From the human T2T-CHM13v2.0 reference genome, Homo sapiens, in assembly GCF_009914755.1 (NCBI RefSeq), contig NC_060935.1: a stretch of DNA of 64,000 nucleotides; one strand, written 5' to 3'. Below are positions 15,288-37,877 of the stretch, one piece after another. Numbering within the stretch: the first letter of the stretch is position 1; each line of letters starts with the position of its first letter. A program made the translations under genes and the position numbers. The notes below the pieces were generated by a model. That model had not been told where the DNA came from, searched no databases, and was given only the letters and a program-made list of their open reading frames with translations.

Positions 15288-16515
<1,228 letters not shown>

Positions 16516-35400: not shown

Positions 35401-35585
35401 GTAGAAGTTCATAGGTAAGGTCAATGCTGGAAACGAAAATTTGGTAATTATCAGCATGTGGATGGTATATAAAACCACGAGACTTGGAGTGACTTGGGGA
35501 GTCAGCATTGATAGAAAGGGAAAAACTGATATCTAAATCTTGAGCTAGGGAGATGAGGAGGATTCAGCACAGGATGTTAAAAACG

Positions 35586-35779
35586 AAAAAAAAAAAAATT
35601 AACTTTTTTTCAATAATGTGTTGCAGCTTTTTGTACATATGGGATATTTTTTCTTACATTTATTTTTTGTTTTTAGATGATTGTTGTAAGTGGCATTGTG
35701 TCTCAAATTTCACTTTCTAATTATATTTAGTATATAGAATTAAAACTGATTTTTGTCTAAAAAAAAAAAAAAAAAAAAA
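35586..35779 (+). mobile_element. Short retrotransposed insertion (candidate orphan 3' transduction)
   Basis: TSD aaaaacg (35579-35585, 35780-35786) at TT/AAAA; A13 + 160 bp + ATTAAA (35739-35744) + A26 run. Confidence 0.75.
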
Positions 35780-37877
35780 AAAAACGGAATGACCACAGAG
35801 GTAGGAGAAGCAAGAGAGTGATGTCTTGAAAGCCTGGAAGTCTGGGAGTGTGTCAAAAAGGAGAGAGAGATCAACTGTGTCCAATTATGCTAATAAGTAA
35901 GAGGAAGAGTGAGAATTGACCATTGGCTTTAGCCACATGGGAGCCATTGGTGACCTTGACAAAAGGGTGGTAGGCAGAAAAGACGAATTGGAATGGCTTC
36001 AGTGGAAAATGGAGGGAAGAAATTGGCATACAAAATACAGACGACTTTTTCTGAGAAATTGCCCTGTAAGTGGAGAGAATAATAGGTCATCACTGGAGGG
36101 ATGTATGTCAAAAGGTCACTTTTTGAAGATGGGAGATAGTCACATTTGCGTGCTGATGGGCATGACCCATTAGAGTGAGAAAAGTTGAAAATGCAGAGAT
36201 GGAGAAGCAATAGCAATAGCTGGAGTAAAGACTCTGAGTATGAAGAGGGGATGGAAATAGTAATGCTTCATAGAGTTGAGGGGAGGCTATAATGAAATGC
36301 TCTGTGTAAGACCTCAGAATGATACCTGATGCATGACAGTTGGTCAGAAAATGATACCTTTTACTATTATTATATAGTAACTTGGGGCAGGTGAGAGGGT
36401 AAAAGGACTCCTCAAATTCAGAAAACTCAAAGTTGAGATTAGAAACAAGTGTAAGTGGCATGACTGGTGATAAGAAAGCACAAGTCAGAAACTAGGATCA
36501 TTGAGGCAGTTCAATTTCTCCAACTGGGAGAAGCAGGGAAGCAACAGGCTACAGTGTCAAGTGCAAATAGCTTTTGCCTCGTAATATGGTCTCTCTCCGT
36601 CAGTAACTAGCTGCACAATAATAAGCAAGTCCCTGAGTCACTTTATGCCTCCATTTTCTCTCCTATAAAAGGAGTCTGGTAATACTCATTCTCTTGGTTT
36701 GAAACATGATTTCTAAGAAGCCGGCAAGGCTAAGCAGGAGAAAGTAGTTTAAAGTAGTGTTCTGCAAATGAGAGTTGTTTTCAGGAAGAGGTGTTTCAAA
36801 TAGCAGAGAAGTGGGGATTCCAAAGACTCCCTAGGGTGAGGAAAAACAAATACTGTACTGTATACAATAGGTCCTTGAGTCAGAAGGGAGGGGAGGGCGA
36901 GAAGGCAGAGTGGTATTCAGGGATCAGGAGTCAAACAGCAATTAAGGGAACAAAGGTCAGCTGGATGATAATTACAGGCAGTTAGGGAGGGAATTAGAGC
37001 TAGAGAGGTACTAATTACATGGGCCATTTAGACAAGGGTGGGGCTTCGCCTAAAGGAACAAAATGAGGGCTGATTACCTGCTAAAAATAAAGGCTGCCCC
37101 TCGGAGCCAGGGCTCACACATCTGGCATAGTCCCAGGCAGCACGAGGCTGTGTTCTCTGCTTTGCAGTGCCTACTCTGCTTCTAGTGTGGGCAGAACGTG
37201 CCTCCACCCTTCCCCAAGTACTGACATAAGGTCTGGGAGCTGTCTGTGGATCACTCCCTAGCTCTGTAGGAGATGGTGGCGTAGGGGAGAAGGGCTTGGA
37301 GATAAAGCATCAAAATTGGGTACACCAGTCAATCAATATAATCAGTCTAGGGGCTGGCTGTGCCCTGCAGAAGGATGCCAACCAGGAGGGCCACAGGGAG
37401 TGAAACCCAGGCCATATTTTGTTCTTTGTGCCAGTGCCCTGAAGTGGGGCTGTACCTGCTGGAAGGAAGGGGTACCTTTCCTTTATTTTCATTAAGTTGC
37501 TATATGGACTATCTCAGTCCTGTGGCCAATGCAAGAAATTTGGCTCAGCTTTCTGAGGGGCTGGTACTGTATCCTCTATTTCTTCAGATCACTTTGTGAG
37601 GTCATTATTCTCCAGTGGGGGCTTGTGGGAGAGGCAGTGGAGGCAGAAAGCGCATGCCCAGACCATATTCTCCCAGCTCAGTCAGGCTTCTCTACCTCTG
37701 ATTGAACCTGTACTCACTGTGAAGCTTCCTGGGCCACCTGTATCCAGCAGCTGACATGGATGATTTCTCTCATACTTGTGAAGATTCTCTGATGGTAAAA
37801 TAGACTACCATATATTAAGACCTCTGTGTGCTTCATTTCATATTCTTACCATTTTGGGGGTGGTTGTGTTTTTTCTT

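What the first reader, a model, noticed from the sequence alone, without database searches (positions are those of the whole stretch)
35579..35786. Candidate orphan 3' transduction: TSD-A13-160 bp-ATTAAA-poly(A)-TSD with no retrotransposon body
Seen: an L2 reading 'gcacaggatgttaaaaacg|gaatgaccacagaggtaggag' is split at a canonical L1 endonuclease site (TT/AAAA) with aaaaacg duplicated. The insert is A13, then 160 bp (35599-35758) resembling a decayed ANTISENSE L1M fragment, a variant poly(A) signal ATTAAA 14 nt before an uninterrupted A26 run. An ancient antisense L1 piece would not be expected to carry its own clean sense poly(A) tail. Established: L1 and SVA read-through mobilises 3' flanks, and 5' truncation can remove the element itself. 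Inference: A13 is the remnant of the source element's tail, and the 160 bp is a barcode pointing to the source locus. The pure tail and intact CpG in the TSD suggest a young insertion. Automated annotation would probably hide it as old L1M.
Basis: partly seen in the sequence, partly recalled or inferred. Interest (0 to 1): 0.75.

Follow-up and report, generated by a model that had tools for sequence, protein, structure and literature searches.

The report
Truncated retrocopy of DNAJC1 intron RNA
A 200-base piece of an intron of the chromosome 10 gene DNAJC1 has been copied into chromosome 11 upstream of BDNF with the marks of LINE-1 copying, most likely from a DNAJC1 transcript that ended early inside that intron; this is a real but known kind of event.

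Summary
The anatomy is as described: a 7-bp duplication at a TT/AAAA site, A13, 160 bp, ATTAAA and an A26 run. The 160 bp has one near-identical copy in the genome (158 of 160 bases), on chr10, sense to DNAJC1 and 6.2 kb into a 76-kb intron. There it has no poly(A), so chr10 is the donor. The A13 matches the A15 tail of an old Alu directly upstream. No young L1 or SVA was found in 160 kb around the donor, and T-runs rule against Alu (Pol III) read-through. DNAJC1 has published intronic poly(A) sites, and a second DNAJC1 retrocopy on chr12 ends at one of them. Best reading (0.68): a 5'-truncated L1-made retrocopy of an intron-polyadenylated DNAJC1 RNA. Main rival (0.22): a true orphan transduction from an L1/SVA missing from this genome. 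Use of this exact poly(A) site, the age, and polymorphism could not be tested. It fits the published class 1 templated sequence insertions: a new member of a known kind.

The parts
35577..35582 (+). TT/AAAA site, the L1 endonuclease consensus
   Evidence: sequence; consensus as in PMC5110952
35579..35585 (+). left copy of 7-bp target-site duplication
35586..35598 (+). A13; 5' truncation point, matching the A15 tail of an old Alu at the chr10 donor
35599..35758 (+). 160-bp copy of G000:C10:21895147-21894988 (minus strand, DNAJC1 intron, sense to the gene; antisense relic of old L1 ORF2); differences at 35604 and 35683
35632..35688 (+). two TGTA motifs (35632, 35685), candidate upstream poly(A) elements
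   Evidence: role inferred
35739..35744 (+). ATTAAA poly(A) signal, 14-16 nt before the tail
35759..35779 (+). poly(A) tail absent from the donor (the first two A's may be templated)
35780..35786 (+). right copy of the target-site duplication
35787..36050 (.). old dispersed repeat that received the insertion (L2 by recall); continues on the left of 35579

Best explanation
[quoted passage not shown] Shown: donor, direction of copying, sense orientation to DNAJC1, a tail that is not in the donor, the duplication at TT/AAAA, and no young L1/SVA at the donor in this assembly. Inferred: (1) Pol II transcription from DNAJC1 runs into the 76-kb intron and is cleaved 14-16 nt after an ATTAAA supplied by an antisense L1 relic; (2) L1 ORF2p captures this RNA in the germ line, nicks chr11 and primes on the tail; (3) synthesis stops after about 175 nt in the Alu A-tail, possibly at the base of a predicted inverted-Alu duplex; (4) a second nick 7 nt away gives the duplication. 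The insert is likely inert.
For: One near-identical copy among 5 matches; 158 of 160 bases identical, and the donor continues without poly(A). The donor lies between a 158-nt exon and a 120-nt exon identical to PDB 2cqq, DNAJC1, with the DnaJ exon 53 kb upstream on the same strand. In 16 stretches covering C10:21875001-22035000 there is no open frame of 250 aa or more and no SVA-type hexamer repeat; all L1 matches of 100 nt or more are 65-79% identical to a young L1, and the nearest large one is antisense to DNAJC1. The 2.6-kb repeat between exon and donor holds a DDE_1 transposase relic. Singh 2018 lists three DNAJC1 intronic poly(A) sites, one in this same intron. A second DNAJC1 retrocopy on C12 joins these two exons to a cryptic intronic exon and ends at one of those published sites. 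The donor site has ATTAAA, two upstream TGTA motifs and a 71% T stretch downstream; 0 of 37 other scored hexamers in the adjacent part of the intron met both criteria, though the thresholds were set after seeing this site. The L1 source table of Nam 2023 has 10p12 entries only near 19.07 and 19.38 Mb.
Against: No exon junction survives in the insert, so the promoter is not recorded. This exact poly(A) site was not found in any table I could search: the Singh site in this intron maps about 10.6 kb downstream, and IPAFinder supplements had no DNAJC1 row in 3 files searched, 1 not searchable. Truncation inside a 15-nt A-run is what a source element inserted in that tail would also leave. The C12 retrocopy ends in only A8 where the donor has a genomic A7, so it may have been primed internally. 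The duplex idea is weak: 9 of 27 sense Alus in the region have an antisense Alu within 1 kb upstream, and the pair is only 70% identical.
Confidence: 0.68

Rival explanations
1. True orphan 3' transduction: a full-length L1 or SVA, polymorphic or since lost, sat in or near the Alu tail at the donor, read through to the ATTAAA, and the copy was truncated in the A-run.
For: The insert begins exactly in an A-run. An Alu tail offers an endonuclease-type site (sequence). Precedent: a 212-nt orphan transduction in DMD from a non-reference L1 (table row and reference title in PMC4859970). Schloissnig 2025 counts 48 germline orphan transductions.
Against: No such element in this assembly. None at this place in the Nam 2023 source table or by term search in the PCAWG supplements. 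No sibling copies of the body or of three neighbouring donor stretches. It needs an extra, sense-oriented intronic element, while the host gene already supplies the transcript.
Confidence: 0.22
2. Another Pol II promoter inside DNAJC1 (an unannotated intronic RNA, or the antisense promoter of the old L1 at about C10:21.904 Mb) made the RNA, and L1 copied it in trans.
For: An old L1 on the + strand lies about 9 kb upstream in the direction of transcription; the insert does not record a 5' end.
Against: The match to a young L1 starts only at ORF2, so no promoter-bearing 5' end was seen.
Confidence: 0.05
3. Alu-driven 3' transduction by Pol III read-through from the donor Alu.
For: The 5' end of the insert is the Alu's own tail.
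Against: Six runs of four or more T in the 160 bp, the first 6 nt after the tail; the Alu is old; the 3' end follows a Pol II signal. Halabian 2024 confirmed no Alu transduction among 118,489 AluY (abstract).
Confidence: 0.03
4. DNA-level duplication or break-repair patch, not retroposition.
For: The duplication is short (7 bp) and A-rich.
Against: A tail absent from the donor, placed 14-16 nt after ATTAAA, plus a duplication at TT/AAAA; class 2 patches lack these marks.
Confidence: 0.02

Closest known systems
Class 1 templated sequence insertions (TSIPs; Onozawa and Aplan 2016, PMC5110952)
   Same: Non-L1 intronic template, duplication of 5 bp or more, TTTT/A site, 10-40 added A's, cryptic poly(A) signal 10-20 nt upstream.
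   Different: The signal is ATTAAA, not AATAAA; polymorphism is not shown here; the insert is in the reference assembly. The 2015 list of 171 events could not be read.
TMF1 retrocopy in CYBB (de Boer 2014, as described in PMC4859970 and PMC5199112)
   Same: L1 retroposition of a non-annotated, prematurely polyadenylated host transcript whose new 3' end holds an Alu.
   Different: That copy is 5.7 kb with exons and is pathogenic; this one is cut back to 173 nt of intron and cannot name its own promoter.
Orphan 3' transduction (DMD, Awano 2010 / Solyom 2012; SVAN class in Schloissnig 2025)
   Same: Short unique segment, poly(A), duplication, no element body. SVAN labels as orphan any such insert that aligns outside annotated exons, so a pipeline would file this one there.
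   Different: No full-length L1/SVA source was found at the donor.
Intronic polyadenylation isoforms of DNAJC1 (Singh 2018, PMC5928244)
   Same: Same gene, same strand, one listed site in the same intron.
   Different: The listed site is about 10.6 kb further downstream; this site is not in that table of differential sites.

Membership tests
L1-mediated (TPRT) insertion / class 1 TSI | target-site duplication of 5 bp or more | tested here: met
   7 bp
L1-mediated (TPRT) insertion / class 1 TSI | insertion at TTTT/A-type site | tested here: met
   TT/AAAA at 35577-35582
L1-mediated (TPRT) insertion / class 1 TSI | non-templated poly(A) 10-30 nt after a poly(A) signal | tested here: met
   donor lacks the tail; ATTAAA 14-16 nt upstream
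L1-mediated (TPRT) insertion / class 1 TSI | template from a distant, intact locus | tested here: met
   C10:21895147-21894988, 158 of 160
TSIP (polymorphic) | presence/absence variation among humans | not testable with these tools
   no other human or ape genome held; supplement searches blank but incomplete
Orphan 3' transduction (L1/SVA) | no retroelement body in the insert | tested here: met
Orphan 3' transduction (L1/SVA) | full-length young L1/SVA upstream of the donor on the same strand | tested here: not met
   this assembly only
Orphan 3' transduction (L1/SVA) | non-reference source allele at the donor | tested here: inconclusive
   absent from the Nam 2023 table; Schloissnig Tables 19-20 not held
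Retrocopy of an intron-polyadenylated host transcript | donor sense to, and inside, a Pol II gene | tested here: met
Retrocopy of an intron-polyadenylated host transcript | the site is used in host-gene RNA | tested here: inconclusive
   other DNAJC1 intronic sites are published, this one not found
Processed pseudogene (strict) | annotated exon sequence or a splice junction in the insert | tested here: not met
   the insert is colinear intron sequence
Alu 3' transduction | no Pol III terminator (four or more T) between Alu and transduced end | tested here: not met
   six such runs; criterion

The most novel reading that the evidence does not exclude
An Alu in the last exon of an intron-terminated DNAJC1 RNA helped it reach L1 proteins, and an inverted-Alu duplex then stopped reverse transcription at the Alu tail, so a host-gene retrocopy mimics an orphan transduction. 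With the chr12 copy, DNAJC1 has twice donated intron-ending retrocopies. Many germline 'orphan transductions' without a source element would then be fossils of germline intronic poly(A) sites, with 5' ends clustered at Alu tails.
Probability: 0.2. Interest if true: 0.55.

Novelty: new member of a known kind. Interest (0 to 1): 0.3.

Why it matters
Modestly. It is a traced example of L1 copying an unannotated intronic RNA end, which repeat annotation would read as old L1 and transduction pipelines would label orphan. It gives genomic evidence for a poly(A) site in a DNAJC1 intron that was likely used in the germ line, and shows that DNAJC1 has donated such a copy before. It lies about 73 kb upstream of BDNF and about 670 bp from a RefSeq enhancer (hub annotation), so it would be a candidate marker if polymorphic or human-specific. 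Nothing here shows an effect.

Tried and rejected
Direct alignment of the body to a young L1: not above shuffles. Structured RNA: no Rfam match, folding z = 0.31. Sibling copies of the donor flanks: none near-identical among the scored candidates, which are lower bounds. Empty-site test with paralogues is only suggestive: the left flank beat the best of 100 shuffles in 4 of 8 paralogues, mostly by little; 6 of those 8 were aligned (L029 and L033 dropped for no left-flank signal) and all 6 opened a gap over the insert, but their slices were cut short, which favours a gap. Identity of the Singh 2018 site in this intron with the donor site: rejected, about 10.6 kb apart. A-to-I editing as the cause of the A-to-G difference at 35683: compatible, but one transition is no evidence. 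Catalogue look-ups were blank: Schloissnig 2025 table file, cut inside Table 18; Logsdon 2025 table file, possibly cut too; PCAWG; IPAFinder. Paper searches for DNAJC1 with 'intronic polyadenylation' or 'retrotransposition', and for 'retrocopies' with 'intronic polyadenylation', returned 0. Four papers sought by id were not held.

Full report
Observation. The window holds, as described, AAAAACG (35579-35585), A13, a 160-bp T-rich body (35599-35758), ATTAAA (35739-35744), A26 (35759-35784) and a second AAAAACG (35780-35786), with TT before the first copy. The 7-mer occurs 4 times in 64 kb on this strand and never on the other. The flanks belong to an old dispersed repeat with many 69-91% partial paralogues; the name L2 is recalled. 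Paralogue evidence for a contiguous empty site is only suggestive.

Donor. A search of the whole genome gave 5 matches: the window itself, one 99% copy at C10:21894986-21895149 on the minus strand, and three partial 75-85% matches. The copy differs at 2 of 160 bases and continues into ordinary genomic sequence where chr11 has its tail, so copying went from chr10 to chr11 through a polyadenylated RNA. Directly upstream at the donor is an A15 run, the tail of an Alu that is 77% identical to an AluY of this window and has 4 CpG against 22. The body is an antisense relic of old L1 ORF2, shown through its three paralogues and its collinear neighbours, not by direct alignment.

Host gene. A DnaJ-domain exon lies 53 kb upstream on the same strand. 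The donor is 6.2 kb downstream of a 158-nt exon, and the next exon, 76 kb on, is identical over 40 residues to PDB 2cqq, DNAJC1. The copied RNA strand is therefore the DNAJC1 sense strand. Exon numbers (8 and 9) are recalled.

Search for a driver element. In 16 stretches covering C10:21875001-22035000 there is no open frame of 250 aa or more and no doubled CCCTCT hexamer. Against a young L1 taken from this genome, matches of 100 nt or more are 65-79% identical; the large one at 21.904-21.908 Mb is antisense to DNAJC1, and the only two on the gene's strand are 66-70% fragments 110 kb away. The 2.6-kb repeat between exon and donor carries a DDE_1 transposase relic. The Alu cannot easily be the driver: six T-runs of four or more lie in the body, the first 6 nt after its tail, and Halabian 2024 (abstract, introduction and part of the methods read) confirmed no Alu transduction. 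The L1 source table of Nam 2023 has 10p12 entries only near 19.07 and 19.38 Mb (supplement search). No near-identical siblings of the donor flanks were found.

Intronic polyadenylation. The donor has ATTAAA, two upstream TGTA motifs and a 71% T stretch downstream, the last supplied by a neighbouring antisense Alu tail; 0 of 37 other scored hexamers nearby met both criteria, with thresholds chosen after the fact. Singh 2018 (passages and supplementary file 4) lists three DNAJC1 intronic sites. One is in this intron (27% usage in blood T cells) but maps about 10.6 kb downstream of ours. A second DNAJC1 retrocopy at C12:74.249 Mb consists of the 158-nt exon (94%), the 120-nt exon (98%) and a spliced cryptic exon from the next intron (94%), and ends where another Singh site maps. 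An intron-ending DNAJC1 isoform has thus been retroposed before. Caveat: its tail is A8 over a genomic A7, so internal priming is possible.

Mechanism. Shown: donor, direction, orientation, added tail, duplication, endonuclease-type site. Inferred: Pol II cleavage at this site in germline DNAJC1 RNA, capture by L1 ORF2p in trans, and truncation after about 175 nt. Folding of the 1368 nt upstream of the cut predicts a duplex between the donor Alu and an antisense Alu about 590 nt upstream, ending at the Alu tail. This matches the truncation point, but 9 of 27 sense Alus in the region have such a partner, so it stays a hypothesis. PMC5199112 (passages) reports that genes with Alus in the 3'UTR are over-represented among pseudogene parents (24.5% against 19.5%), least so for sense-only Alus. 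The rival, a source L1/SVA in the Alu tail that this assembly lacks, would leave the same chr11 sequence. My odds of 0.68 against 0.22 are a judgement, not a computed figure.

Age. 2 of 160 is 1.25% (Poisson 95% range 0.15-4.5%), similar to human-chimpanzee divergence (recalled, about 1.2%). Both differences look derived on chr11: the donor base at the first is shared by both copies of the Alu's own target duplication, and at the second by 2 of 3 paralogues. The pure tail suggests the young end of the range. No other human or ape genome is held. The Schloissnig 2025 table file was cut before its source tables and the Logsdon 2025 file gave no hit, so polymorphism is open; unseen supplements may list the event.

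Comparison. The event meets the sequence criteria of class 1 templated sequence insertions (PMC5110952, parts 1-2 of 4 read) except that the signal is ATTAAA and polymorphism is unknown. It resembles the TMF1 insertion in CYBB (described in PMC4859970 and PMC5199112, passages). It works like an orphan transduction in outcome and would be labelled one by SVAN (PMC12350158, passages), but fails the source-element test in this assembly. Other papers touched: PMC12016303 and PMC4862182 (passages); PMC8559711, PMC7058536, PMC10191854 and PMC12350169 (supplement searches only). I found no description of this insertion in searches, which cover only the open library; the 2015 list of 171 such insertions was not available.

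Verdict. Real, well traced, of a known kind. Interest 0.3.

Noticed in passing
G000:C12:74248799-74249282 (L040 2799-3285): 5'-truncated DNAJC1 retrocopy made of two spliced exons plus a cryptic terminal exon from C10:21823047-21822840; it ends where a published DNAJC1 intronic poly(A) site maps.
   Followed up: partly
window 16079-16390: CpG-rich AluY-type element with an uninterrupted A31 tail and a target duplication of about 12 bp, inside an older L1; looks young and may be polymorphic.
   Followed up: no
G000:C10:21895069 (window 35677-35678): The 160-bp body holds a strong-looking splice acceptor; the copied RNA had not used it, since sequence upstream of it is included. Another candidate acceptor at C10:21896424 would give a 1.4-kb terminal exon holding both Alus of the inverted pair.
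   Followed up: no
G000:C10:21898250-21900890 (L008): DNA-transposon relic with a DDE_1 frame between the DNAJC1 exon and the donor.
   Followed up: partly
window 36456-37322: RefSeq enhancer (hub annotation) begins about 670 bp right of the insertion; the BDNF 5' end is about 73 kb to the left.
   Followed up: no
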